Part shown: one piece after another, positions 1,961 to 23,810 of the stretch | How the letters are laid out: the number at the start of each line of letters is the position of its first letter | Numbering within the stretch: position 1 is the stretch's first letter | The notes under the pieces: model-generated | Told to the model about the DNA's origin: nothing | Databases searched by the model: none | Seen by the model: the letters and a program-made list of their open reading frames with translations, nothing else | Translations under genes and position numbers: made by a program | Source of the DNA: a virus | Strand: one strand, 5' to 3' | Virus record (IMG/VR): IMGVR_UViG_3300031949_000033 | Location: 1-63,171 of that record | DNA length: 63,171 nucleotides

Positions 1961-3829
1961 CTATCCCGATGTGACTGTCGCTGCGACGGTCCATTCAAAG
2001 GTCTTGGCTGCCACGCCGGTCACGATGACGCGCACCTTCCCGCCGGTCACACCGAAGATGCAGGCAGTGTTCGCGTCGCTCTCCACGGCTGCGATCAGGC
2101 TCGTAATGGTGCCGAGCAACGCGGCGTTCTGGTGACTCAACACCCCGTTTGCCGCCGCACTTCCCCCTGAATCGTCGGTGATTATTTCGTCGTCCTCGAA
2201 TTCGCCGACTATCTCGCGTAGCGTCAGCGTGCCCGTCACGCCCGCATCGGAGTCCGCAGTGATGGTCGCCGTCGCCCCGGAGGTACCTCCGGTCAGGGTA
2301 TCGCCCAGCGTGAAGTTCACGGTTTGCGCGTCGTAGTTGAGCGTCGAGCCTGTCCGATGCGCACCTTGGCAAATCCTGAATATCGCATAGTCGATGACGT
2401 TTTTGCCGTTGGCAATGACCGTCGCATCGACGACGACACGCTCACCCGGCGCCAGATCGTAGGCCCAGGCTTCCGTTACCGTGGCGTCGGTTGTCGTCCC
2501 GGATGGCCCCGGCGCGTCGTCGATCGAACGCCGCGTGCGCATCCAACGCGTCGTGTCGGTCCCCGCCAGCGTCACGGTATCTGACTCCAGGCAGTCCTGG
2601 ATGATGATCGCGTTATCCACCGATGTCAGCGTATAGGTCCCGGCCAAGAACTCCACGCCGTCGAAACAGATGTCCTGACAGGTGCCGGTGAAGGTCATGT
2701 TCGATGAAATCGTGCCGCCGTGTACCTTGAAGTCGACCACCGTATTTTCAGTGAACGCAGAGGTGTCGCTGCCGTCCTCCACGGTAAGGTCCGTCGTGTT
2801 GCCGCTGAACCAGCAGCGACGCCAGAGATCGGTATGACGCGCCCCGATGATCTTGAGTGCGACTCCCGTATTGTCCGTGAAAGCGACGAAATCCAGCCCG
2901 TTATGCCAGACCTTATCGTCGACGTACTTCAACTCCACACCGACCGTCGTGCAGTTCGACACCTCGCCGCCGGACCAGAGATTGTGCGAGAATTCCGCGG
3001 CGTTGCCGTGCAACAGCGCGCCGTTGGTGCAGGTGTCGATCGAGAGATTCTTCCAGTTGTTGCGCTGCCCGCCCAATGCTTCCAGGCCGGTCACGAAGCG
3101 CTTGACGAGAACATTGTCGAGGACGATGTTGTCGATATCCACTGCGGCCACCCCTACCGAGCCGGCCGTCGTCGTCACGCCGTCGAGGGTGATTTCCCTG
3201 AATCCGCCCAGCGCACCGCTGATCGTGTAGACATCCGATCCCGCCGAGCATTGCAGCACGGTTGCCGACCTGCTCGCCCCTTGGACAACAACGTCCGCCG
3301 GTACGGTGGTTGCGTTGTGCCCGTAGGTGCCGGGCGGAATGACAACGATTCCACCGCCGTAGCCTGTTGCCGCTCCTATGGCCGCGTCCAATGTCGTCGT
3401 GTTCGTCGAGGCCGAATAATTGGGGTCGGTCGTCTCGAGGAAAACGCCGAAATCGGTGACATAGACGTAGCGCGCGAACAACGACGCGATGGTGTGTGCA
3501 GCCGATCCCCCGGTCGCCAAGCCGGTTGCCGCGCTGGCGTCTGCCGCCGAAAGGCTCTGAAGCGGTACGCGTATCTCGCCGCTCGTCTCCGTGGTGTTGA
3601 TGTTGAGCTTGTAGTCGACATCGATGTACAGCGGCGCGGCGAATTTACCGTAGGTGACCGACCCCACGGTTTGCGAACTCAGCGTTTGCGGATTGTCCGC
3701 GGCGACCGATAGCGCCTCATCGGTGTACACGCTCGCCAGCGTTGTCGTACCGGCGAGCCATATCTTCACCGTCGCGCCGGCGTATCCGGCCCGCCAGGTA
3801 TCGAATTCAAGTATGCGGTGTGCCGCCAT
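1961..3829 (-). CDS. Tailspike / depolymerase with pectate-lyase-type right-handed beta-helix
   Basis: 622-aa ORF. It has the cap motif TTLDAAIGAATGYGGGIVVIPPGTYG followed by a long G/N/V/T-rich beta-helix-like region (ITLDGV, VLDNVLV, NLSIDTC, GNAAEFSHN). GGGGG RBS lies before ATG 3829. Confidence 0.8.
   Translation of the reverse strand: MAAHRILEFDTWRAGYAGATVKIWLAGTTTLASVYTDEALSVAADNPQTLSSQTVGSVTYGKFAAPLYIDVDYKLNINTTETSGEIRVPLQSLSAADASAATGLATGGSAAHTIASLFARYVYVTDFGVFLETTDPNYSASTNTTTLDAAIGAATGYGGGIVVIPPGTYGHNATTVPADVVVQGASRSATVLQCSAGSDVYTISGALGGFREITLDGVTTTAGSVGVAAVDIDNIVLDNVLVKRFVTGLEALGGQRNNWKNLSIDTCTNGALLHGNAAEFSHNLWSGGEVSNCTTVGVELKYVDDKVWHNGLDFVAFTDNTGVALKIIGARHTDLWRRCWFSGNTTDLTVEDGSDTSAFTENTVVDFKVHGGTISSNMTFTGTCQDICFDGVEFLAGTYTLTSVDNAIIIQDCLESDTVTLAGTDTTRWMRTRRSIDDAPGPSGTTTDATVTEAWAYDLAPGERVVVDATVIANGKNVIDYAIFRICQGAHRTGSTLNYDAQTVNFTLGDTLTGGTSGATATITADSDAGVTGTLTLREIVGEFEDDEIITDDSGGSAAANGVLSHQNAALLGTITSLIAAVESDANTACIFGVTGGKVRVIVTGVAAKTFEWTVAATVTSG
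2138..2344 (-). repeat. 69-aa shared module, copy in tailspike C-terminal region
   Basis: TLNYDAQTVNFTLGDTLTGGTSGATATITADSDAGVTGTLTLREIVGEFEDDEIITDDSGGSAAANGVL. It includes a near-identical 35-nt stretch (atggtcgccgtcgccccggaggtacc.ccggtcag) shared with 4340..4546. Confidence 0.8.
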
Positions 3830-3838
3830 GCTGGCCCC

Positions 3839-4849
3839 CTAGTGCTTCCAGATCCCGCCGTAGGGTCGCCGGCGCATGCCGCCGCCCTCTCCCCAGCGCG
3901 CCGTCCGCCTGCCCTGCGGCGATACTCGTTCGCGGTTGTAGTGCGCCTCCAACTCCTTGAATATCTTGTCGCGCTCCTTTTTGATCCGCTCCAGTTTCTC
4001 TGACTTCAACTGCCGAATCGGGCCGTCGCCGACTTCCAGCGCGGTCGCCGCCACCATCCATTTCTGGACGACGCGATCGAATCCGTGCGCCGTGTCTCCG
4101 GCGCCGGACTGTACGGAGAGGTCCGTCTTCACGGTCTGCGGATAGGTCATCGCGACCAGCCTGAGCGTGGTCGTCGAGTCCGATGGTACCGGGTAGACGA
4201 AGAGGTTTTGCGTGTTGTTCGCCAGACGGTCGATGTAGATCGCCTCGGGGTCGCCCGTTGCCGTCTTGTCCGGTATTTCCTCGTAGACGCCCCTACGGAT
4301 GATTTCGATAGGCGTGATGGCATCGCTCGCCGAGGACGGCGTTCCGTTCGCCGTAGCGCTGCCGCCCGCCGCATCGGTAATGGTTTCATCGTCCTCGAAG
4401 TCGCCAAAGATGCGCCGCAGCGTCAGCGTGCCGGTTGCGCCGTCATCGTCATCGGCGATAATGGTCGCCGTCGCCCCGGAGGTACCGCCGGTCAGCTTGG
4501 AGCCTACTGTAAAGGCCGCGCTCTGCGCATCGTAGTCGAGCGTCGCCGCCTTGCCGATATACGCCTTCATCGGATAGACGACGCCCAGGTCCGGGAAAGC
4601 ATCGCCGGCGATGGTCGAGAGCAGGTAGTTATCGGTATTCGCCGTCAGCACGAACTCTATCGTCTTCGGAATCAGCCACTGGGCGATGGATGTCCCCGCC
4701 AGCGAGGCGATTTCAATCTCCATGAAGTCCAAGGCGATGAGAAGCAGATTCGAATCTGCTCCGGTATCGCTCGGCGAGTAGGCGCCAACCTTGCGCAGCA
4801 CGAGTTCGCACAACTCTCGTGCAGTGTACAAGCTGACCGGCGTCGTCAT
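3839..4849 (-). CDS. Head-to-tail adaptor, P22 gp4-like N-terminus, with an inserted 69-aa module
   Basis: 336-aa ORF. The N-terminus ARELCELVLRKVGAYSPSDTGADSNLLLIALDFMEIEIASL resembles the gp4-type adaptor helix pattern as I recall it. The gene lies between the capsid genes and the tailspike. Confidence 0.5.
   Translation of the reverse strand: MTTPVSLYTARELCELVLRKVGAYSPSDTGADSNLLLIALDFMEIEIASLAGTSIAQWLIPKTIEFVLTANTDNYLLSTIAGDAFPDLGVVYPMKAYIGKAATLDYDAQSAAFTVGSKLTGGTSGATATIIADDDDGATGTLTLRRIFGDFEDDETITDAAGGSATANGTPSSASDAITPIEIIRRGVYEEIPDKTATGDPEAIYIDRLANNTQNLFVYPVPSDSTTTLRLVAMTYPQTVKTDLSVQSGAGDTAHGFDRVVQKWMVAATALEVGDGPIRQLKSEKLERIKKERDKIFKELEAHYNRERVSPQGRRTARWGEGGGMRRRPYGGIWKH
4340..4546 (-). 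repeat. 69-aa shared module, copy inserted in adaptor-like protein
   Basis: ATLDYDAQSAAFTVGSKLTGGTSGATATIIADDDDGATGTLTLRRIFGDFEDDETITDAAGGSATANGT aligns residue for residue with tailspike aa 496-564. Confidence 0.8.
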
Positions 4850-4864
4850 GGCGCGGCCCTACGC

Positions 4865-5476
4865 TTACGCGGCTTGCCGATCGAGCATCTGTGAGCGCGG
4901 GAACATCTTCTCTGACATCGCCGGCGTCATCTGGTCGGCCGTCAGGTCTCCAGAGGCGATCTTCTCGGCAAGTGCGCGCTCGCCATCGGTCATGCCTTTC
5001 TTGGAGCGATTCCACGCCGTCAGGAAATCCGCGAGTTCCTGATCGCTGGCATCCATCGAGACGTTTTCGCTCCCCGGCAGCACCTTGACGCGCCGCAGCA
5101 ACGCCTCGCGGGAGAGTTCGTCATGCTTGACGACGATCTGGTCGTCGGCGAGCACGGTGATCGGTTTGGATGCGTCGTGTTTGCTGATCGGCTCGATCCT
5201 CGTGCCGCTCGGACCCAGCACCTTGAAGGCGGGATCGCAGAGCAACTTCAGGGCGTGCTCCATGGGCATCTTGCAGGGCTTGCCGGAATACAGTTCGTAG
5301 CTCACGAAGTCGAGTACTTCGATGCGACCGTCGACCGTCTTCGCGGTCTTGGTGATGATTTCGTGCTTGCGCGGCTCCTTGCCCCGCTGGTTCAGATCGT
5401 AGACGTGGTATTCCGGTCGCTTCTCGATCTCCGGTTTTCCGTTGTCCTGTTCTTGCTGCGTGGTCTTGGTCGCCAT
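4865..5476 (-). CDS. Hypothetical protein in the head/tail module
   Basis: 203-aa ORF with AAGGAG RBS (cgaaaggagtagttATG). No recognisable motif. Confidence 0.6.
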   Translation of the reverse strand: MATKTTQQEQDNGKPEIEKRPEYHVYDLNQRGKEPRKHEIITKTAKTVDGRIEVLDFVSYELYSGKPCKMPMEHALKLLCDPAFKVLGPSGTRIEPISKHDASKPITVLADDQIVVKHDELSREALLRRVKVLPGSENVSMDASDQELADFLTAWNRSKKGMTDGERALAEKIASGDLTADQMTPAMSEKMFPRSQMLDRQAA

Positions 5477-5494
5477 AACTACTCCTTTCGTTGG

Positions 5495-5521
5495 AAAAAG
5501 CCCACGGCTCGCGCCGTGGGC
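5495..5521 (-). terminator. Rho-independent terminator (minus strand) after the capsid gene pair
   Basis: Minus-strand RNA reads GCCCACGG-cgcgag-CCGUGGGC followed by UUUUU. It lies in the 84-nt gap between genes 5561..6262 and 4865..5476. Confidence 0.6.
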
Positions 5522-5560
5522 ATGAGGTACCGCCTTGCTGCGCCGCCTTGTTGCCTGCGG

Positions 5561-6262
5561 TTAGTCGAGCGTCGGCGTTCCAGTCGTCATCAACAGGTAC
5601 GGCAGGAAGGCATACGCCTCACCCGTGTCCGCACCCGCCGAGAACGTGAACGTCAAGCTGTCTCCGGCCGCGATGTAGTTCGTGATGGCCGTAATGAGCG
5701 CGCCGTCCACGTCCGCCACCAAACCGGTATTGGTCAGCGACACAGCCGACATCAGACCGTCGGCATCGCCGCCGTCGGCGGGCACCACTTCTCCGGTGCC
5801 TACGTCCAGCGTTTCGGTTGCGTCCGCGGTGTGGACTTTCAGGTGAGGCCACGGCAGGAAGATCATCCCGGTAATGTCGTCCATCCCGGTATCGACTTCC
5901 GTATTGTCACTCACCTGATCGTCGATGCTGATCGGAAGGATGAGCATCTGGCTGCGGTTGCCGCGATCCACGGCGATTTCGTTGACTTCATCCGCCCCGA
6001 CGCTCCACAACTGCACGGAGAAACCCTCGCCGGTCAGGATGAACAAATCGACCGCCGTCAACGTGTTGGCCCCCCAGAACTCGCCGCTTCCCCTGGTGAG
6101 GGAAATCGGGTTGCTCAGGGCGGTACCGTCCTCGTTGTACAGCGTCGCCTTCGCCGGATCGCCTGCAGCGGTGACAGTGCATTTGCCGCCGGCGCCCATG
6201 ATTGCCGGGCCGGAGAACGCACCGATGGGACGATCAACCAGTTGGAATTTGTAGTGCAACAT
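5561..6262 (-). CDS. Hypothetical virion protein immediately downstream of the major capsid gene (possible decoration/auxiliary capsid protein)
   Basis: 233-aa ORF with GGGAGGAG RBS. It is followed by a terminator. The functional suggestion rests on position only. Confidence 0.55.
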   Translation of the reverse strand: MLHYKFQLVDRPIGAFSGPAIMGAGGKCTVTAAGDPAKATLYNEDGTALSNPISLTRGSGEFWGANTLTAVDLFILTGEGFSVQLWSVGADEVNEIAVDRGNRSQMLILPISIDDQVSDNTEVDTGMDDITGMIFLPWPHLKVHTADATETLDVGTGEVVPADGGDADGLMSAVSLTNTGLVADVDGALITAITNYIAAGDSLTFTFSAGADTGEAYAFLPYLLMTTGTPTLD

Positions 6263-17576: not shown

Positions 17577-19760
17577 CTATACCGGCGGCCCTTTGGTTGG
17601 CGGTGCGGCGAGTCGCCCCGACGCCCCTCTGCCCTCTGGCATGCCATGAATGATTCCTGCCGGACTCTCCGGCGGCGCTCCCGGCGTGCCCATCGGTGGC
17701 TCCTGTTTGCCGGGTACGCCGTGCGGCTGCGGTGCCGGGATCTGGTTCGGCAGGATGAGTTGCCCTTGCTTGAGCGCTGCCGCCAAGTCGTCTGCCGTCA
17801 GCAATCCCTGCGCCCGCAAATAAGCCGAGAGCCGCGCCTTGATGAGCGTCTTCTGCGGCGCGCTCGACAGGTCGACGGCGATATCCTGGATCATCGGGAT
17901 CGGCAAGATGCCTTTCTCGATAAGCTCCATAAGCTCCTCGAACTGCGCGTTGAGGAAGGTCGCCGACAGGCTGGTTTCGTCGACCGCCACGTCGTAGCGA
18001 CCGATGGTTACGTCGTTTACGATGCGCCCTGTGGCATCGGCGATGTTGATGCCGACCGCGTTCCAACTCCCGTTGATGTCCTGCACGCGCAACAGGCGCG
18101 GTTCGGTGTAGAAGCTCTGGATGAGTTCGAGCTTCTTGCGGCCACACATGCGCTTGCTGCGGCGCGCGTTGTCCATGTAGATTTCGATGCCGAGGACGGA
18201 TTGTCTCTGCCTGGCTTCGATGGCCCGCCCCGATTGGACGCGATCCAATTGGCCGAGCGCGCTGTCGTTGATGCCGAGTATTTCCTTGAGGTCGCCGGTA
18301 TTGGCTTTCTCCAGACGCTCCAAGGCGTTCGGCGGAAGGGGCGGCCGGATCTGTTCCGGTTTGCCGTCCGAGCCCCCTTTCCACTCAATGTTGATTCCGG
18401 GTGCCGCACCGAAGTTTTCGATCTTCTCTTTCTCGGCGTCCTCGAGCGCGTTCACATGCCACATCCACCCGGCGAAGGCCTGACGGGTGATGACATCCGT
18501 TTCAGCGGATCGGCGCTTGTTGATCTCCGTTTGCGGGTCCAAGCCGTCCTCCACGATGCCGCGCGTCTTGCCGCGCCGGAAGTACGGAAAGAACGGGATC
18601 TGCGTGAAGCTCTTGTACTTGCTCCAGTCGTCGTAGATGATGATATCGCCGAGAATGGTCGTCCAGCGCACACGCTTGGTCGGTCGCCATTGCACGCGCA
18701 GCGGATTGGCCTTGCCCTGTCTGGCGTACTGTTCGGCGCCCCACATGAGAATTCTTTGCACCGCGGCTTGATCCAGGCGATCTGGAAGCGGTATCTTGTC
18801 GCCGGTCTCCAGGTTGATGATATGCCTGACCATGCTGCGGATACGGTGCTGCATTTCGATCAACCTGATGTTCTTGCGGTAGGGATCGACGACGTTGGCG
18901 ATGTAGTTGTGCACGCTGTAGCCGCCCACCATGCCGTCAGGCTGCTGACCGCCAAAGGTGCGCCATGGCGTGACCTCGGCAAGAGCATCCATCATGTCAG
19001 AGGGCACCCCGCCACGGTACCCGGAACTCCGCACCAGCGGTTCCACCAAACCCGATATCTGCCGCCCGTAGGTGTACTCGACCTCATCCAGGTTGACCCA
19101 TCGGCCCTCGCTGACATGGCCCCAGTCGTCCGGGTCGTAGCTGTCCGCATCGGCGTCCGGCCGGATCGTAAACGGGTCCTTCGAGGTTACCCGCGCGTCG
19201 CCGAGATCGTTGCGCTCGAAACTCAGCCGCCAGTCGTAATAGCCCCTGCCGCCGACGATACCGTCCAGGAAGCACTCGGCATCGACATAGGCTTCGTCGC
19301 AGTTCATGGCGATTTGCTTGGACTGCTTGGTCAACAGATCGGCGACGGCCTCGTCGCTCGCCGTATCGTCGGTGGGCAGATAACGGTTGTCGACGCGGTT
19401 GTTACGGTGATAGCCAATAACCAAACGTACCAGGGCACCGAGCTTGTTGAGGGTGAGCGTGGGGCGGTCTTCCTCGATCGCCTGTCTTATCTCGTCCGCG
19501 CTCCACTGTTTCCCCTCCACGAAGTCGAAGCACTTCTTGGCGATATCCGACCACGCCTGCAAGGCCATGTCGTCGCGCTGGTAGCGCTCGACCATGAGCA
19601 GCAACAGTTCCGGGTTGTGAGCTGCCGGTAGAATCCCGTTGGCGCCCATCATCGGGTTCCACGTCGGATCTTCCCCCCAGATCGGGTCGGTTTTCGCACC
19701 CGGGATCGGCGGCGCCCAGGAAAACCTGCTGGGTATGAAGAGGTTGTCAACGGCTCCCAT
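17577..19760 (-). CDS. Portal protein
   Basis: 727 aa from Met52 of ORF 17577..19913. Its ATG overlaps the TerL stop (TGATG). It contains FVEGKQWSADEIRQAIEEDRPTLTLNKL, a portal/connector-like motif, and lies downstream of the terminase. Confidence 0.75.
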   Translation of the reverse strand: MGAVDNLFIPSRFSWAPPIPGAKTDPIWGEDPTWNPMMGANGILPAAHNPELLLLMVERYQRDDMALQAWSDIAKKCFDFVEGKQWSADEIRQAIEEDRPTLTLNKLGALVRLVIGYHRNNRVDNRYLPTDDTASDEAVADLLTKQSKQIAMNCDEAYVDAECFLDGIVGGRGYYDWRLSFERNDLGDARVTSKDPFTIRPDADADSYDPDDWGHVSEGRWVNLDEVEYTYGRQISGLVEPLVRSSGYRGGVPSDMMDALAEVTPWRTFGGQQPDGMVGGYSVHNYIANVVDPYRKNIRLIEMQHRIRSMVRHIINLETGDKIPLPDRLDQAAVQRILMWGAEQYARQGKANPLRVQWRPTKRVRWTTILGDIIIYDDWSKYKSFTQIPFFPYFRRGKTRGIVEDGLDPQTEINKRRSAETDVITRQAFAGWMWHVNALEDAEKEKIENFGAAPGINIEWKGGSDGKPEQIRPPLPPNALERLEKANTGDLKEILGINDSALGQLDRVQSGRAIEARQRQSVLGIEIYMDNARRSKRMCGRKKLELIQSFYTEPRLLRVQDINGSWNAVGINIADATGRIVNDVTIGRYDVAVDETSLSATFLNAQFEELMELIEKGILPIPMIQDIAVDLSSAPQKTLIKARLSAYLRAQGLLTADDLAAALKQGQLILPNQIPAPQPHGVPGKQEPPMGTPGAPPESPAGIIHGMPEGRGASGRLAAPPTKGPPV

Positions 19761-22700
19761 CAGAGGCGCCCTCCACGCCGGCGCCATGGCTTGGTTCCTG
19801 CCACGCCACGCGCGGTCAATCGCCTCTGCCATTGCGGCGTTGTGTTCAACATGGCCCCCACGGATTCGACGGTGACATATTTCAACGCCAGATACTGTAA
19901 CCCATCGTGACAATTCGAGACGAGCACCCCGTTTGCGTAGAATGTGTGGGTATCCTCGACGGTCAAGTCATAGACGCGCTCTCTTCGACCGTGACAGGGC
20001 TTTACGCCAGCAACCGTTAGAGCATGTTCTGGTGCGTGCGTAGCGGTTGATCTTGAAAGCTGACCCGCAGACTGCACAGCTTCGTTCCTCGTCGTCGACT
20101 CCTGAATCGCGTCTCGCCTTTGACTGACAGGCTGCCGAACAATATCCCTTCTTCGGCGCAAGGGTAACATATCGTTTTTCGCATATCCTGCAAATTCTCT
20201 CCACTGGCTGTCGATTGCTCCAAGCGCGCTTTGCCTGCTCTGCATGCCAACGTCTCCCTTCGTCGCTCGCGTGCCATTGCCTTGCCGCCGGGATAACGCA
20301 GTCGAGCATGTGTCGTTTTGCCTCGTCGGGGTTTTCTCTGACGCGTTTTCGTGAGTGATATGCTGCGTGCGCAGTGTCGCTAAGTAAGTGAAGATTTTCG
20401 ATCGCGTTATGGTCTTTATCTTCGTCGCCGTGATGAATGTCGAACCCGTGAGGGATCGGCCCATTGTGATGCCGCCAAATATCCCGATGCAGATACGTGC
20501 CGCCGAACCTATTGTCGCAACGGTAGTATCCTTCAGGCTTGCGATAATACGTGCGAGCGTTGAAGACAACGGCTTTGTTCTTTCTTGGTCTTCCCATTGT
20601 GCCCCGGCCATCGTTTTCAATACGTCGCCGTATTGTAGTGCATCTGCTCTGACCCTGCCGCGATCCAGGATAAACTCGTGGTCCGCCGTGCAGCACACCG
20701 AATCACAATTTGAGAATCGCACGGTGACGAGGTTGTTAGACATCCTGTTCATCGTCGCCGTTACCCTGCGCGCTCCGTTATGCGTTAGCACCACGTCGCC
20801 GACACTGATCGATTCGATTGGTACACCACCCTCTGCCGTGGCTACGAGCGTGCCCGCGACGAAACAGTGCGAGTATTTGTTTTTGTAAGCCTCATTCTGG
20901 TATCTGGCCTCTCCTGTGACCTGAATGCGCCTATAGTGGTAGCCTCCCTTGAATCCCTTGAGCAATGTTTTCGCGGAACTGTCGATGAGGATGGCCGGTT
21001 CACCGTCGGTCAGTTTGGTGAGAAACCAGGCCACCGCCTCGCGCCGCGGCTGGAATTCGTAGGCTTTGGCCTTCTCCCATTCCCAGTGCCCCTCGTCGAG
21101 AATATCGGCGCAACTGACCTCATCGGACTGCGCCCGCTCTCCAACCTGCGGATCGCAGACGATCCTGTAGCGCCTGTCAACACCGAATCGGTTGGCAAGG
21201 TAGGGCTTCAGAGCGTCGCTCAAAAACGCGCGCAACCCCATACTGCGTTCCCTGGCGCAGCACTCTCCCAATACGAGTAGTTGCCCTTTCGGGCTGCACT
21301 GCCCGGGGACCGCCGCCGGCGACAGTCCGAAGTCCAGGCCGATGTCGATCGGCATGCCTGATATCGGCGTGAGATCGCGTTTCACCCCATGGATTCGCTG
21401 ATTGAATTCCGGGTAACACGGGATGCCGTCAATGACCTTGCCGTAGTTGTTCAGCAGGTAGGTGCTGATCCAGTCCTCGCTCTTGCCGGCGACCAGTTGC
21501 AGCCAGTAGGCCATGCCCATCGGCTGATTGACGACGTTCTCCGCCTCAGGATTCGGGAAGTAACTGCCGTCGATCTTGAGCAGCGCCGGTGGCTGGTCGA
21601 AAAATTCGATGAGCGGTCGATGCACACCGATGCTGGCCAGAACCGCGCGCAGCTTCGCCATCATTTCCTGAATTTCCTTTCCGCGCTCTTCGTCGTCCGG
21701 TCCGACATCCAGGTCGTGCCACCAGTGGTCGTCGTCCATGGAGTTCGTGTCCATGATCACGCCCGCCCAGGTGAACGGAGCACCATCCTTCTTCAGCGGG
21801 AAGCGGCCGACCCGGGCGCTGCCGTCGTCCAATACGAGCTTGTCGAGTTGTCCGGCCTCGTTCAACCATAGCCCGGTCAGGTCCAGCGATTTCAGCTTGC
21901 CGATCGCCGCAGGGTGATCACAGGACATGAAGAGCACTTCCAAATGCATGATGGTGCCGTCGTCCAAAGCAAGCTTGACCGTTGCCTCAATCGGGGCCCC
22001 CCAATTCATCTTGACAACGTCTTCCCCAAACCATGACAAGAACGTGAAAATAGTTGTCGACTCAAGCTGCGGGTAGGTATTACGTATAGCCGCCCAGCGC
22101 GTCCGCCGTATGCCGCGGTCATCCGGTTCCTGCTGGACTGCGCGTAGCGCTATCTCGGCGACGCAGGCGACCGATTTGCCGCTGTTTCCAGTGACGCAGA
22201 TCGAGTCGTTGCGGCGCGTGACGAAAAACCCGGTGGATGTGTGGAAGCAGTATTTCTTGCCGTCCACGGAAGGCACGCGCTCGATGGGTATTTTCCGGCT
22301 GCCGTTGCGGATACCGGCGTATCCTCGCGACGATCCTATCACCCTGTATGACCGACTCCAGCCCGGCTTACGTCCTTCTTGAGTTCCAACCGATGCACGC
22401 CGTCCGCACGCCGAAAACGCGTAGGCGACGAATTCCGCGCAGGCACGATCGGTCGTGTAGTAGCCCCAGTCGCCGTAACCCTGGTCTTCGCTGCCGTCCC
22501 AGCGCAAGCATTCGGCGGCGATGATCTTTAGTTGCGCCGCGCTCGCCTGCCAGTATTTGGCCAAACTCTTGTTGCGCTCCGGCGCTTCGAAGCGAAACGT
22601 GGTTTCGGTAGGACGGTTCGGGTTGTCGTATTCGCTCCATGCGATGCCGGCCATGACAAGCAATTGTCGGACCCGCAATTTTTTGTCGGCGCGACGCACG

Positions 22701-23263
22701 CAGACCGTACAACGCGTCGTTTTTGTGCGCTGCGAAAACGAGCCGTCCGCGCAGACCATGACCATGACGCGCAGCTCGGCGTCGTTGAGGCCGACACCCA
22801 CAGCGTTCTCCGGCGGCGGGAAGCAGCACGGAACCAATCCGGGCCAGCCGTCTTTCAGGTGCTGGTGCTGGAATGCCAAGCCGGCCGCCCTGATTTGCCT
22901 GAGCACGCCGGGTTTGGCTTTGACGAAATACGGGATCAAGTGCTCGTCGCTCGCCATGATGTCGAGCCCGCGCGACTTCAGATGGATGAAAGCGTCGCAG
23001 TCGGCCACGATACGCGAGACCGCCTCGAACCATGAACGGTTGTTCTCCGGGTCGACGACGAGAATTTCCTCGCCTGCCCAGCGATCCATGCGCACCCAGC
23101 CGGTGCGGGTCATAACCTCGTGGTCTGCGGAATTGCACCCGTATGGACCGCGGATACCGCGGATGAACGCGTTGCTCTTGTGAAATCGGGCCGGAGTTTT
23201 CTCGGCGCGGTAGTGGAATCGGAATTCCTGACGCCTGCTGCCGTAGCTTTGGATGGATGTCAT
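19760..23263 (-). CDS. terL: Terminase large subunit precursor (1167 aa) carrying two inteins; mature extein about 531 aa
   Basis: Walker A GPYG/SGKS is split by insert 1. Walker B-like LDLTGLWLNEA is present. The nuclease motif KNKYSH/CHDGLQYL is split by insert 2. The gene lies upstream of the portal. Confidence 0.85.
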   Translation of the reverse strand: MTSIQSYGSRRQEFRFHYRAEKTPARFHKSNAFIRGIRGPYGCNSADHEVMTRTGWVRMDRWAGEEILVVDPENNRSWFEAVSRIVADCDAFIHLKSRGLDIMASDEHLIPYFVKAKPGVLRQIRAAGLAFQHQHLKDGWPGLVPCCFPPPENAVGVGLNDAELRVMVMVCADGSFSQRTKTTRCTVCVRRADKKLRVRQLLVMAGIAWSEYDNPNRPTETTFRFEAPERNKSLAKYWQASAAQLKIIAAECLRWDGSEDQGYGDWGYYTTDRACAEFVAYAFSACGRRASVGTQEGRKPGWSRSYRVIGSSRGYAGIRNGSRKIPIERVPSVDGKKYCFHTSTGFFVTRRNDSICVTGNSGKSVACVAEIALRAVQQEPDDRGIRRTRWAAIRNTYPQLESTTIFTFLSWFGEDVVKMNWGAPIEATVKLALDDGTIMHLEVLFMSCDHPAAIGKLKSLDLTGLWLNEAGQLDKLVLDDGSARVGRFPLKKDGAPFTWAGVIMDTNSMDDDHWWHDLDVGPDDEERGKEIQEMMAKLRAVLASIGVHRPLIEFFDQPPALLKIDGSYFPNPEAENVVNQPMGMAYWLQLVAGKSEDWISTYLLNNYGKVIDGIPCYPEFNQRIHGVKRDLTPISGMPIDIGLDFGLSPAAVPGQCSPKGQLLVLGECCARERSMGLRAFLSDALKPYLANRFGVDRRYRIVCDPQVGERAQSDEVSCADILDEGHWEWEKAKAYEFQPRREAVAWFLTKLTDGEPAILIDSSAKTLLKGFKGGYHYRRIQVTGEARYQNEAYKNKYSHCFVAGTLVATAEGGVPIESISVGDVVLTHNGARRVTATMNRMSNNLVTVRFSNCDSVCCTADHEFILDRGRVRADALQYGDVLKTMAGAQWEDQERTKPLSSTLARIIASLKDTTVATIGSAARICIGIFGGITMGRSLTGSTFITATKIKTITRSKIFTYLATLRTQHITHENASEKTPTRQNDTCSTALSRRQGNGTRATKGDVGMQSRQSALGAIDSQWREFAGYAKNDMLPLRRRRDIVRQPVSQRRDAIQESTTRNEAVQSAGQLSRSTATHAPEHALTVAGVKPCHGRRERVYDLTVEDTHTFYANGVLVSNCHDGLQYLALKYVTVESVGAMLNTTPQWQRRLTARGVAGTKPWRRRGGRL
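19913..20866 (-). mobile_element. Intein 2 (aa 800-1117 of TerL), inserted in the nuclease motif
   Basis: Begins CFVAGTLVATAEGGVPIESISVGDVVLTHNG, contains CTADHEF (block B), and ends VYDLTVEDTHTFYANGVLVSN followed by Cys. The in-frame middle part is not protein-like. Confidence 0.75.
19968..20597 (-). CDS. HNH homing endonuclease ORF nested out of frame inside intein 2
   Basis: MGRPRKNKAVVFNARTYYRKPEGYY...GFDIHHGDEDKDHNAIENLHLLSDTAHAAYH (HNH motif) plus two C-terminal CxxC...CxxxC clusters. The frame is offset by 2 relative to TerL. The full ORF-track extent is 19968..20696. Confidence 0.7.
   Translation of the reverse strand: MGRPRKNKAVVFNARTYYRKPEGYYRCDNRFGGTYLHRDIWRHHNGPIPHGFDIHHGDEDKDHNAIENLHLLSDTAHAAYHSRKRVRENPDEAKRHMLDCVIPAARQWHASDEGRRWHAEQAKRAWSNRQPVERICRICEKRYVTLAPKKGYCSAACQSKARRDSGVDDEERSCAVCGSAFKINRYARTRTCSNGCWRKALSRSKRARL
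22184..23137 (-). mobile_element. Intein 1 (aa 43-360 of TerL) with LAGLIDADG-type endonuclease, inserted in the Walker A P-loop
   Basis: Begins CNSADHEVMTRTGW and has a SDEH block. It carries two LAGLIDADG-like motifs (LRVMVMVCADGSF and IAAECLRWDGSE) and ends FFVTRRNDSICVTGN followed by Ser. Excision restores GPYGSGKS. Confidence 0.75.
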
Positions 23264-23532
23264 CGGCGCCTGAGTTGGTATAGGTCTGCTTTACCGACAA
23301 AGCCGGTGCGCTCTATCTGGTGCTTGGCGGCTTGGATGGCCGAGTAGGCGACGAAACGGTTCAGCCCGGTCCTGACTGCGATTTCGTTGACGGTAAGAGG
23401 GCGCTTTGTTTTCTTCAGCGCTTCTATGACCTGGTTGATGTGTTTTTTAACTATTGAGATCTGCGGCTGCCATGGCGGCGAGGTGATGAGGGCCAGAAAT
23501 GGGTTGGTTCCCACTGCCGGCCGCCTCGCCAT
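23260..23532 (-). CDS. Winged-helix DNA-binding protein immediately upstream of TerL (candidate small terminase or packaging specificity factor)
   Basis: 90 aa from Met29. HINQVIEALKKTKRPLTVNEIAVRTGLNRFVAYSAIQAAKHQIERTG looks like a wHTH. Its stop overlaps the TerL ATG (ATGA). Confidence 0.5.
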   Translation of the reverse strand: MARRPAVGTNPFLALITSPPWQPQISIVKKHINQVIEALKKTKRPLTVNEIAVRTGLNRFVAYSAIQAAKHQIERTGFVGKADLYQLRRR

Positions 23533-23540
23533 GGCCGCTC

Positions 23541-23810
23541 TCAAGCCGCAGACCCCGACAATCGCCTGACCACCATGCGCCAGAACGTCTCGCCTATGAC
23601 GGCCTTGCGTAGCCAACTACCGTCTATGCCCAGCATTGTGCTGGTGCCGGTCCATGATGGGAGTGGACCCCATTGCGCCCAGCCGAACGAGACGCCGATC
23701 CAGTGCCGCCACCGATAGCCGACAAAGAGGTCGAAACCGACGACGGTCACGGTGACCCCCCATTTTCTGGCGTAGTCTTCCTCGCCGATGTCGATGGCAG
23801 CAATCCTCAT
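23541..23810 (-). CDS. Hypothetical protein (Trp-rich, hydrophobic)
   Basis: 89-aa ORF in the operon, coupled to its neighbours. Confidence 0.5.
   Translation of the reverse strand: MRIAAIDIGEEDYARKWGVTVTVVGFDLFVGYRWRHWIGVSFGWAQWGPLPSWTGTSTMLGIDGSWLRKAVIGETFWRMVVRRLSGSAA

What the first reader, a model, noticed from the sequence alone, without database searches (positions are those of the whole stretch)
22184..23137. LAGLIDADG intein inserted in the Walker A P-loop of the large terminase
TerL reads ...IRGIRGPYG | CNSADHEVMTRTGW...FFVTRRNDSICVTGN | SGKSVACVAEI.
- Removing aa 43-360 (318 aa) restores a canonical GPYGSGKS P-loop.
- The insert starts with Cys and has an SDEH block-B-like motif.
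- It carries two LAGLIDADG-like motifs, LRVMVMVCADGSF and IAAECLRWDGSE.
- It ends in Asn followed by Ser.
- The penultimate residue is Gly rather than the usual His, which may mean altered splicing chemistry.
Packaging ATPase activity must depend on protein splicing.
Basis: partly seen in the sequence, partly recalled or inferred. Interest (0 to 1): 0.65.

Follow-up and report, generated by a model that had tools for sequence, protein, structure and literature searches.

The report
Homing intein in terminase ATP loop
The DNA-packaging enzyme gene of this uncultured phage is interrupted, inside its ATP-binding loop, by a real self-splicing protein element (an intein) that carries its own homing nuclease. 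This is a well-known kind of selfish element, but it belongs to a large family that standard domain models miss and that has an unusual pair of catalytic cysteines.

Summary
Window 22184..23137 (minus strand) encodes a 318-aa in-frame insert in the 1167-aa large terminase (TerL). It reads GPYG|C…VTGN|SGKS.

**It is an intein.**
- The AlphaFold model (pLDDT 92) matches PI-SceI, TliVMA and PI-PfuI inteins, and I-DmoI for the middle part.
- Intein-free TerL relatives read GPWGSGKSVACVAEI without a break.
- The same element sits in RtcB, SNF2, DnaB/primase, PIF1 and clamp-loader proteins, mostly at G|xGK[ST].
- dN/dS against a relative with about 8% DNA divergence is 0.055, against 0.038 for the extein.

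**The penultimate Gly is a family hallmark.** Among 151 full-length members:
- Cys1 occurs in 149.
- Cys at block F:4 occurs in 150.
- Thr or Ser at G:5 occurs in all 151.
- Gly at G:6 occurs in 147.

**Closest relatives.** The only solved relative found by sequence is the AceL NrdHF intein (6ZGQ), a proven class 3 intein that ends TGN|S. Pfam and NCBIfam splicing-domain models miss this insert. A cultured coliphage TerL carries a family member at the same site.

**Verdict.** This is a new member of a known kind. Whether Cys1 or Cys F:4 starts splicing is untested.

The parts
19760..23263 (-). Large terminase (TerL) precursor ORF, 1167 aa, carrying two inteins. The spliced product is 531 aa and 59.9 kDa.
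   Evidence: The extein hits phrog_2 'terminase large subunit' at 6.4e-14. It is 75% identical over its full length to the 531-aa intein-free P0162.
23138..23263 (-). N-extein, aa 1-42. It ends in GPYG (23138..23149), the first half of Walker A.
22184..23137 (-). Intein 1, 318 aa, running from Cys1 to Asn318. This is the finding.
22844..23137 (-). N-terminal Hint lobe (intein residues 1-98). It holds block A (CNSADHEVMTRTGWVR, 23090..23137) and block B (GLDIMASDEHLIPY, 22928..22969; S63 = B:7, H66 = B:10, L67 = B:11, I68 = B:12).
   Evidence: The family profile aligns this part to the AceL NrdHF intein 6ZGQ at E=1.4e-9. Conservation is shown. The model's strands are listed.
22283..22843 (-). 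LAGLIDADG homing endonuclease domain (intein residues about 99-285). Motif 1 is DAELRVMVMVCADGSF (22736..22783, D131). Motif 2 is AAQLKIIAAECLRWDGSE (22487..22540, D214).
   Evidence: Foldseek matches I-DmoI and I-Tsp061I at E around 1e-5. The model has helices 119-131 and 200-214, each followed by a strand. D131 is present in 151 of 151 members and D214 in 146 of 151. dN/dS for this part is 0.044.
22184..22282 (-). C-terminal Hint lobe (intein residues 286-318). It holds block F (GKKYCFHTSTGFFVTRR, 22211..22261; C297 = F:4) and block G (SICVTGN; T316 = G:5, G317 = G:6, N318 = G:7).
   Evidence: The Cys-to-Asn spacing is 21 residues, as in the MP-Be DnaB intein (C320 to N341, PMC2807308). AceL NrdHF has 22 (C124 to N146, PMC7891396).
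22172..22183 (-). SGKS, the second half of Walker A. Ser is the +1 splice nucleophile.
   Evidence: Intein-free relatives read G[PW/PY/PF]GSGKS without a break.
19913..20866 (-). Intein 2 (aa 800-1117; KYSH|C…VSN|CHDG). It is context only and not part of this finding.
   Evidence: Pfam Intein_splicing, Hint_2 and TIGR01443 hits. Relatives without it read KY[ST]HPHD.

Best explanation
Window 22184..23137 (minus strand) encodes a functional, mobile intein. It is a Hint protein-splicing domain with a double-motif LAGLIDADG homing endonuclease nested in it, translated in frame inside the phage's TerL gene.

**Position and consequence.** The intein sits between Gly42 and Ser361. It splits the Walker A P-loop, GPYG|SGKS. 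After translation it must excise itself and join the two halves before TerL can bind ATP and package DNA. This step is inferred.

**Splicing residues.**
- The start of splicing uses Cys1 (class 1 route), Cys297 at block F:4 (class 3 route), or both.
- His66 (B:10), Ser63 (B:7) and Thr316 (G:5) assist.
- The acyl group passes to Ser+1.
- Asn318 cyclises to release the intein, without the usual penultimate His and without the block F:13 His.

**Mobility.** At the DNA level the endonuclease cuts intein-free P-loop alleles and the element is copied in by repair (inferred). The family has used this to spread among P-loop ATPases and RtcB ligases of phages and bacteria.

**What is shown and what is inferred.**
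- Shown here: the fold, the catalytic residues, the empty site in relatives, the spread across unrelated hosts, and purifying selection.
- Inferred: actual splicing, nuclease activity, and which cysteine acts first.
For: 1. **Fold.** The AlphaFold2 model has pLDDT 92.4 and pTM 0.89. Its best PDB matches are endonuclease-bearing inteins: TliVMA 3.4e-13, PI-SceI 2.3e-11, PhoVMA and PI-PfuI. I-DmoI and I-Tsp061I match the middle part.
2. **Empty site.** P0162 (531 aa, 75% identical, full coverage) and P0163-P0166, P0171 and P0191 read GP[WYFVR]GSGKS without interruption. The deduced extein is also 531 aa.
3. **Mobility.** Homologues of the insert alone lie in TerL, RtcB, AAA_25 and PIF1 proteins. 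They also lie in SNF2, DnaB/primase, DEAD/ResIII, clamp-loader and T4SS coupling proteins. Of 151 members, 94 sit at G|xGK[ST] and 36 at the RtcB DIG|CG site.
4. **Catalytic residues.** All are intact here and conserved in the family: Cys1 149 of 151, His B:10 151, Cys F:4 150, Thr/Ser G:5 151, Asn G:7 151, a Ser/Cys/Thr at +1 in 151, and the two LAGLIDADG Asp residues in 151 and 146.
5. **Selection.** Against the relative in L004, the intein shows 62 synonymous and 14 non-synonymous changes, dN/dS 0.055. The endonuclease part gives 0.044 and the extein 0.038.
6. **Not an RNA intron.** No Rfam family matches 19500..23700.
7. **Precedent.** Escherichia phage 19-1-2 TerL reads GGAAG|CLSKDHEV…VVVTGN|SGKS. 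TerL P-loop inteins splice and home in mycobacteriophages (PMC5050341).
8. **Splicing without a penultimate His.** The related AceL NrdHF intein (E=1.4e-9) ends T-G-N|S and splices in minutes. Its G145H mutant is dead (PMC7891396).
Against: - No splicing or cleavage experiment exists for this protein.
- Pfam and NCBIfam Hint/intein models do not hit the insert.
- Block B:11 is Leu here. The family mostly has Arg or Lys there (113 of 151). In AceL NrdHF that Arg helps to replace the missing penultimate His, and R69A slows splicing (PMC7891396). Splicing could therefore be slow or conditional in this copy.
- The genome is a metagenomic contig, so the viability of this exact phage is not proven.
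Confidence: 0.93

Rival explanations
1. The intein is real but splices by the class 3 route. Cys297 (block F:4), not Cys1, attacks the N-terminal junction and forms a branched thioester, which is then passed to Ser+1. Cys1 would be dispensable, or would serve as a relay or redox partner. This rivals only the 'ordinary class 1' sub-reading, not the intein reading itself.
For: - Cys F:4 is present in 150 of 151 members and Thr/Ser G:5 in all 151, together with His B:10. This is the class 3 catalytic triad (PMC7664689).
- The only solved relative found by sequence is AceL NrdHF. It has Ala1, Met at B:12, C124, and T144-G145-N146|S. C124A and C124S abolish all its activity (PMC7891396).
- Natural family members lack Cys1: P0013 and P0026 have Ala1. 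P0010 has Pro1 and also carries Trp at B:12, which completes a WCT triplet.
- The +1 residue here is Ser, as is usual for class 3 (PMC2807308).
Against: - Cys1 is kept in 149 of 151 members, which argues that it is needed.
- B:12 is Ile here, not Trp.
- Published definitions of class 3 usually require that there is no N-terminal nucleophile (PMC7891396).
- The family profile does not hit the canonical class 3 structures (Msm and Mch DnaB1) at E<=10.
- Grafting WCT onto a class 1 intein did not give class 3 splicing (PMC7664689).
Confidence: 0.35
2. The insert is a decayed or domesticated intein remnant that no longer splices. It would be a permanent insertion domain of TerL, or this contig would be a dead phage.
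For: - Standard intein HMMs fail on it.
- The penultimate His and the F:13 His are missing.
- B:11 is Leu instead of the family's usual Arg or Lys.
Against: - Every residue known to be essential is intact.
- dN/dS is 0.055 across both the splicing and the nuclease parts.
- A 36-kDa domain between GPYG and SGKS would prevent formation of the Walker A loop.
- Most TerL relatives lack the insert.
- The missing His residues are a family trait shared with an intein that splices fast (PMC7891396).
Confidence: 0.04
3. The interruption is removed at the RNA level. It would be a group I or group II intron with an in-frame LAGLIDADG ORF, not an intein.
For:
- LAGLIDADG ORFs are common in introns.
Against: - No Rfam match at E<=1 in 19500..23700.
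- The frame is open and continuous with both exteins for 954 nt.
- The residues on both sides of the nuclease fold into a Hint domain with intein blocks A, B, F and G.
- The boundaries are exactly Cys…Asn|Ser.
Confidence: 0.01

Closest known systems
AceL NrdHF intein (PDB 6ZGQ; Hoffmann et al. 2020, PMC7891396)
   Same: - It is the best and only significant solved-structure match by sequence, at E=1.4e-9 over blocks A-B.
- It has the same signature: Ser B:7, His B:10, a hydrophobic non-Trp residue at B:12, Cys F:4, Pro four residues after that Cys in the family consensus, no His at F:13, and the ending Thr-Gly-Asn|Ser.
- It comes from a phage-like metagenomic contig.
   Different: - AceL NrdHF has Ala1 and is proven to be class 3. 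The window's intein has Cys1.
- AceL NrdHF is a 146-aa naturally split intein with a free-standing GIY-YIG gene between its halves, and it sits in a ribonucleotide reductase. The window's intein is contiguous, 318 aa, carries an in-frame LAGLIDADG domain, and sits in TerL.
- B:11 is Arg69 in AceL NrdHF and Leu67 here.
Mycobacteriophage TerL P-loop inteins TerL1-a and TerL1-b, and the RDF intein with a penultimate Gly (Kelley et al. 2016, PMC5050341)
   Same: - These are LAGLIDADG inteins in the Walker A loop of phage TerL.
- TerL inteins from other insertion sites spliced efficiently, and two had active homing endonucleases.
- The penultimate His is often replaced, by Gly among others, in phage class 1 inteins. 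In the RDF intein the natural Gly splices completely and G316H causes precursor to accumulate.
   Different: - TerL1-a lies between the invariant Lys and the Thr (GK|T), and TerL1-b lies one residue away. The window's site is G|SGKS, three residues upstream of the Lys|Ser bond.
- Sequence similarity to mycobacteriophage inteins is weak. Only primase inteins match, at about 24% identity and E around 1e-4.
- The host is a P22-portal-type phage from environmental metagenomes, not an actinophage.
Escherichia phage 19-1-2 / Av-05 group (Avunavirus) TerL intein, GenBank OK181858.1
   Same: - It is the same intein family at the same P-loop position: GGAAG|CLSKDHEV…VVVTGN|SGKS.
- It is full length and carries the LAGLIDADG domain. 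It is 29.6% identical to the window's intein at E=4e-33.
   Different: - The TerL backbone is different (rV5-like myovirus).
- The record annotates the pieces only as 'terminase large subunit', with no intein feature.
Canonical class 3 inteins (MP-Be DnaB, Msm/Mch DnaB1; PMC2807308, PMC7664689)
   Same: - They share Cys at F:4, Thr at G:5 and His at B:10.
- They prefer helicase and terminase hosts, have a phage association, commonly have Ser or Thr at +1, and mostly carry LAGLIDADG nucleases.
   Different: - They lack an N-terminal nucleophile, have Trp at B:12 and keep the penultimate His. The window's intein has Cys1, Ile at B:12 and Gly at G:6.
- The family profile finds no detectable sequence hit to their structures.
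PI-SceI / TliVMA / PI-PfuI (solved endonuclease-bearing class 1 inteins)
   Same: - They have the same two-domain architecture. They are the best structural matches, at TM 0.57-0.64 and E from 3e-13 to 1e-9.
- They share Cys1 and a C-terminal Asn.
   Different: - Sequence identity is only 10-13%.
- They have Asp at F:4 and a penultimate His, and they carry extra DNA-recognition regions.
- They sit in V-ATPase or ribonucleotide reductase genes of archaea and yeast.

Membership tests
Intein (Hint-fold protein-splicing element) | In-frame insertion in a conserved host protein whose orthologues lack it, with precise restoration of the host motif on removal | tested here: met
   Removal gives GPYGSGKS and a 531-aa extein. 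P0162-P0166, P0171 and P0191 are uninterrupted at this point.
Intein (Hint-fold protein-splicing element) | Hint fold formed by the N- and C-terminal parts | tested here: met
   The model has pLDDT 92.4. Its top PDB matches are inteins, with probability 1.00 and E down to 3.4e-13. Pfam and NCBIfam Hint models do not hit.
Intein (Hint-fold protein-splicing element) | Splice-junction residues: Cys, Ser or Thr at 1 (or a class 2/3 substitute); His at B:10; C-terminal Asn (or Gln/Asp); Cys, Ser or Thr at +1 | tested here: met
   Cys1, His66, Asn318 and Ser+1 are present. They are conserved in 149, 151, 151 and 151 of 151 members.
Intein (Hint-fold protein-splicing element) | Penultimate His (G:6), which is common but not obligatory | tested here: not met
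   Gly317 is at this position, and Gly occurs there in 147 of 151 family members. Functional inteins with Gly here are documented (PMC5050341, PMC7891396), so this does not exclude membership.
Intein (Hint-fold protein-splicing element) | Actual protein splicing: ligated exteins plus free intein | not testable with these tools
   This needs expression followed by SDS-PAGE or mass spectrometry.
LAGLIDADG homing endonuclease (double-motif, monomeric) | Two LAGLIDADG helices, each ending in a catalytic acidic residue, within an alpha-beta-beta-alpha-beta-beta-alpha repeat fold | tested here: met
   Helices 119-131 and 200-214 end in D131 and D214. Foldseek matches I-DmoI and I-Tsp061I at E around 1e-5. 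Pfam LAGLIDADG_3 gives only E=0.05.
LAGLIDADG homing endonuclease (double-motif, monomeric) | Site-specific cleavage of the intein-free allele | not testable with these tools
   Indirect support only. dN/dS of the nuclease part is 0.044, the element is sporadically distributed among TerL relatives, and it occurs in many host genes.
Class 1 intein | The N-terminal Cys or Ser is the first nucleophile; F:4 is usually Asp | tested here: inconclusive
   Cys1 is present, but F:4 is Cys, not Asp. Which residue acts first cannot be told from sequence.
Class 3 intein | No N-terminal nucleophile | tested here: not met
   Cys1 is present here and in 149 of 151 members. Class 3 inteins do not need an N-terminal nucleophile to splice (PMC5222942). 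From memory of Tori and Perler 2011, which could not be read, some class 3 inteins carry one.
Class 3 intein | WCT triplet: Trp B:12, Cys F:4, Thr G:5 | tested here: inconclusive
   Ile68, Cys297 and Thr316 give two of the three. The proven class 3 AceL NrdHF intein also lacks the Trp and has Met there (PMC7891396).
Phage terminase large subunit | N-terminal Walker A/B ATPase plus C-terminal nuclease; gene placed next to the portal gene | tested here: met
   phrog_2 hit at 6.4e-14 over residues 27-498. Pfam Terminase_3 is weak, at E=0.022. A P22-type portal gene lies directly downstream, at 3.7e-95.

The most novel reading that the evidence does not exclude
This intein represents a large, mostly phage-borne lineage. 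The best 150 hits, each a 50%-identity cluster, all match end to end. Of the 151 members tabulated, 149 keep the class 1 nucleophile (Cys1) and 150 the class 3 nucleophile (Cys F:4), with the His B:10 and Thr/Ser G:5 triad.

Under this reading the lineage would be the natural bridge between class 1 inteins and AceL-NrdHF-type class 3 inteins. It would splice through Cys F:4, either as a Cys1 -> Cys F:4 -> Ser+1 thioester relay or as two redundant or redox-gated routes.

Rare members that have lost Cys1 (Ala1; or Pro1 with a gained Trp at B:12) would be snapshots of the class 1 to class 3 transition.
Probability: 0.3. Interest if true: 0.55.

Novelty: new member of a known kind. Interest (0 to 1): 0.33.

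Why it matters
**For annotation.** The 1167-aa 'giant' TerL of this phage is a 531-aa enzyme carrying two selfish elements. Its P-loop intein belongs to a family that Pfam and NCBIfam intein models do not see. None of 58 host proteins scanned hit a Hint model, and only 4 hit LAGLIDADG_3. Such genes are therefore routinely mis-sized, split or left unexplained in phage records, for example OK181858.1.

**For phage biology.** It adds a non-actinophage case to the rule that TerL ATPase motifs are the favourite landing site for inteins. The same family uses at least two sites in this TerL clade.

**For intein mechanism.** The family offers many natural Cys1 + Cys F:4 inteins in which to test how the class 3 pathway arose. 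That question is currently argued as divergence against convergence (PMC7664689). Fast inteins of this type that tolerate different exteins are also of practical interest as ligation tools (PMC7891396).

Tried and rejected
- **Pfam and NCBIfam scans of the insert.** No Hint or intein hit appeared. This was rejected as evidence against an intein once the structure model and the family profile were in hand.
- **phmmer of the single insert sequence against PDB.** Only a chance enoyl-CoA hydratase match at E=0.36.
- **A 34-position profile of the C-terminal blocks F-G against PDB.** The aim was to align Cys F:4 to 6ZGQ residue by residue. It matched only repeated DGKKYYF hairpins of cell-wall-binding repeat proteins. 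That is a chance short-motif match and is uninformative. The F:4 assignment therefore rests on three things: the YCF versus Y-D-L pattern, the 21-residue Cys-to-Asn spacing, and the residue numbers published for AceL NrdHF and MP-Be DnaB.
- **Active-site distances** (Cys1, Cys297, His66, Thr316, Asn318). The model's coordinates are not exposed, so this was not possible.
- **RNA-intron reading.** No Rfam match.
- **Recent acquisition.** dS of the intein (0.35) is not lower than that of the extein (0.25) against L004. GC content is similar to the flanks. The intein was therefore already present in the common ancestor of the two phages.
- **Tori and Perler 2011** (class 3 inteins that carry Cys1 or Ser1). 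The paper is not held. What I say about it comes from memory and from citing papers.

Full report
**Observation**

The window is a complete 63,171-bp contig of an uncultured phage. ORF 19760..23263 on the minus strand encodes 1167 aa. Residues 43-360 map exactly to 22184..23137 and give 318 aa with no stop.

The junctions read FIRGIRGPYG|CNSADHEV…ICVTGN|SGKSVACV. A second insert, also 318 aa, lies at residues 800-1117 (KYSH|CFVAG…VLVSN|CHDG). Removing both leaves 531 aa and 59.9 kDa.

The extein is a large terminase (phrog_2, 6.4e-14). A P22-type portal gene follows it directly (3.7e-95).

**Is the insert an intein?**

Library HMMs say nothing useful. Pfam and NCBIfam find Hint and intein signatures only in insert 2. 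In insert 1 they find only LAGLIDADG_3, at E=0.05. The first positive hint was a PHROG labelled 'PhoH-like', which matched the insert at 8e-29.

Searching with the insert region alone found homologues in other TerLs. It also found them in RtcB ligases, an AAA_25 ATPase and a PIF1 helicase. In every case the homologue is bounded by …G|C…TGN|[SCT]G….

An 11-sequence alignment (A1) gave an AlphaFold2 model with pLDDT 92.4 and pTM 0.89.
- The best PDB matches to this model are the endonuclease-bearing inteins TliVMA (3.4e-13), PI-SceI, PhoVMA and PI-PfuI.
- I-DmoI and I-Tsp061I cover the central domain.

No RNA family matches the region.

**Empty site**

A search with the deduced extein found about 120 close TerL relatives, almost all 480-560 aa long.
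- The best is P0162: 531 aa, 75% identical, full coverage.
- P0162 and six others read GP[WYFVR]GSGKS…, continuous across the insertion point.
- Only a few clusters carry the P-loop insert (P0003-P0008).

The element is therefore sporadic within the clade, as expected of a mobile intein.

**Selection**

I compared the window with the relative on L004, which has about 8% DNA divergence.

| Region | Synonymous changes | Non-synonymous changes | dN/dS |
|---|---|---|---|
| Intein 1 | 62 | 14 | 0.055 |
| Endonuclease part of intein 1 | 39 | 7 | 0.044 |
| Extein | 76.5 | 11.5 | 0.038 |

dS is 0.35 in the intein and 0.25 in the extein. It is not lower in the intein, so the intein was inherited together with the gene. 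Both the splicing part and the nuclease part are under strong purifying selection.

**The family**

A profile of A1 scored 12,955 clusters at E<=1e-3 among 1.84 billion representatives. The best 150 all match end to end. I tabulated 151 full-length members.

| Position | Residue and count (of 151) |
|---|---|
| Position 1 | Cys 149, Ala 2 |
| B:7 | Ser 122, Thr 15, Cys 14 |
| B:10 | His 151 |
| B:11 | Arg or Lys 113 |
| B:12 | Hydrophobic, never Trp |
| F:4 | Cys 150 |
| G:5 | Thr 138, Ser 13 |
| G:6 | Gly 147 |
| G:7 | Asn 151 |
| +1 | Ser 65, Cys 60, Thr 26 |
| LAGLIDADG Asp residues | 151 and 146 |

Insertion sites:
- G|xGK[ST]: 94
- Another P-loop register: 10
- The RtcB DIG|CG site: 36
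- Other sites: 11

In a sample of 58, the hosts include RtcB (19), SNF2 (11), DnaB/primase (6), DEAD/ResIII, AAA_25, clamp loader, T4SS coupling proteins and UvrD/UvsW-type helicases.

Among cultured phages, 134 records hold a relative. One is the TerL of Escherichia phage 19-1-2, which has the same site: GGAAG|CLSKDHEV…VVVTGN|SGKS.

**The penultimate Gly and the chemistry**

It is a family hallmark, and it comes together with Cys297 and Thr316.

Using the block numbering of PMC2807308 and PMC5050341, these three residues are F:4, G:5 and G:6.
- Cys297 lies 21 residues before the terminal Asn, as in the class 3 prototype MP-Be DnaB (C320 to N341).
- Cys F:4, His B:10 and Thr G:5 form the class 3 catalytic triad (PMC7664689).

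The only solved structure that the family profile finds with significance is the AceL NrdHF intein 6ZGQ (E=1.9e-6 with A1, 1.4e-9 with A2). According to PMC7891396, that intein:
- has Ala1, Ser B:7, His B:10, Arg B:11, Met B:12 and Cys124 at F:4;
- has no His at F:13 and ends T144-G145-N146|Ser;
- splices with a half-time of about 4 minutes by the class 3 route (C124A and C124S are dead);
- is killed by G145H;
- uses Arg69 (B:11) to help replace the missing His.

Kelley et al. (PMC5050341) likewise found that a phage intein with a natural penultimate Gly splices completely, and that Gly-to-His causes precursor to accumulate. The Gly therefore does not argue against splicing.

What stays open is which cysteine starts the reaction.
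- Cys1 is kept in 99% of members. The published class 3 definitions I read require its absence.
- Three natural members have lost it. P0013 and P0026 have Ala1. P0010 has Pro1 and has gained Trp at B:12.

This copy has Leu at B:11. The family-invariant Arg308 is a candidate compensator (inference).

**Comparison with catalogued sites**

TerL is the commonest intein host in actinophages: about 40% of inteins in PMC5050341, and 293 of 784 in bioRxiv 10.1101/2025.01.02.630785.
- The P-loop sites TerL1-a (GK|T) and TerL1-b are one residue apart.
- The window's site, G|SGKS, is three residues upstream of the Lys|Ser bond.
- It is the family's most common site across many ATPases.

**Verdict**

The finding is correct and well supported. 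It describes a known kind of element. The modest added value is threefold:
- the family membership, which standard profiles cannot see;
- the two-cysteine signature;
- the link to AceL NrdHF.

Earlier notes of this scan reached the same family picture for mini-intein versions in coliphage TerL P-loops. Those are leads, not independent evidence. I re-derived the residue counts and the 6ZGQ link here.

Noticed in passing
window 19968..20696 (-), inside intein 2 (19913..20866): A 242-aa ORF on the same strand but in another frame hits Pfam HNH_3 at 2.1e-12. The in-frame middle of intein 2 is low-complexity sequence. Against L004 it evolves at dN/dS about 1.0 in the intein frame, while the intein's ends give 0.24. 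So an out-of-frame homing nuclease gene lies inside the intein.
   Followed up: partly
proteins P0006 and P0194 (TerL relatives), after ..IRN: A third intein site occurs in this TerL clade: IRN|C[FY]DD[QK]TEILTE … [SG]Q|TYG.LK.TT. That intein ends in Gln rather than Asn, and P0006 has a LAGLIDADG_3 hit.
   Followed up: no
protein P0187 (TerL relative), at NKY|C…VTGN|SHP: A member of the intein-1 family (CVDTETEALTPCGW…RVIVTGN) sits in the C-terminal nuclease motif, two residues upstream of where the window's intein 2 lies. One family therefore occupies two different TerL sites.
   Followed up: no
protein P0010 (AAA_25 host protein), residues 168-479: This family member has no Cys1 (its N-terminus reads PLPGSAQF). 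It has Trp at B:12 (CENHRW) together with Cys F:4, Thr G:5 and Gly G:6. That makes a complete class 3 WCT triplet inside a family that otherwise has Cys1.
   Followed up: partly
L005 (Escherichia phage 19-1-2, OK181858.1), locus 2411..5987: The record annotates TerL as three separate 'terminase large subunit' CDSs with an 'HNH homing endonuclease' gene between two of them. It has no intein feature. The first piece contains the P-loop intein.
   Followed up: partly
window 23260..23616 (-): A 118-aa ORF with weak HTH hits overlaps the TerL start by 4 nt. In relatives the equivalent called gene is 90 aa. It may be the small terminase.
   Followed up: no
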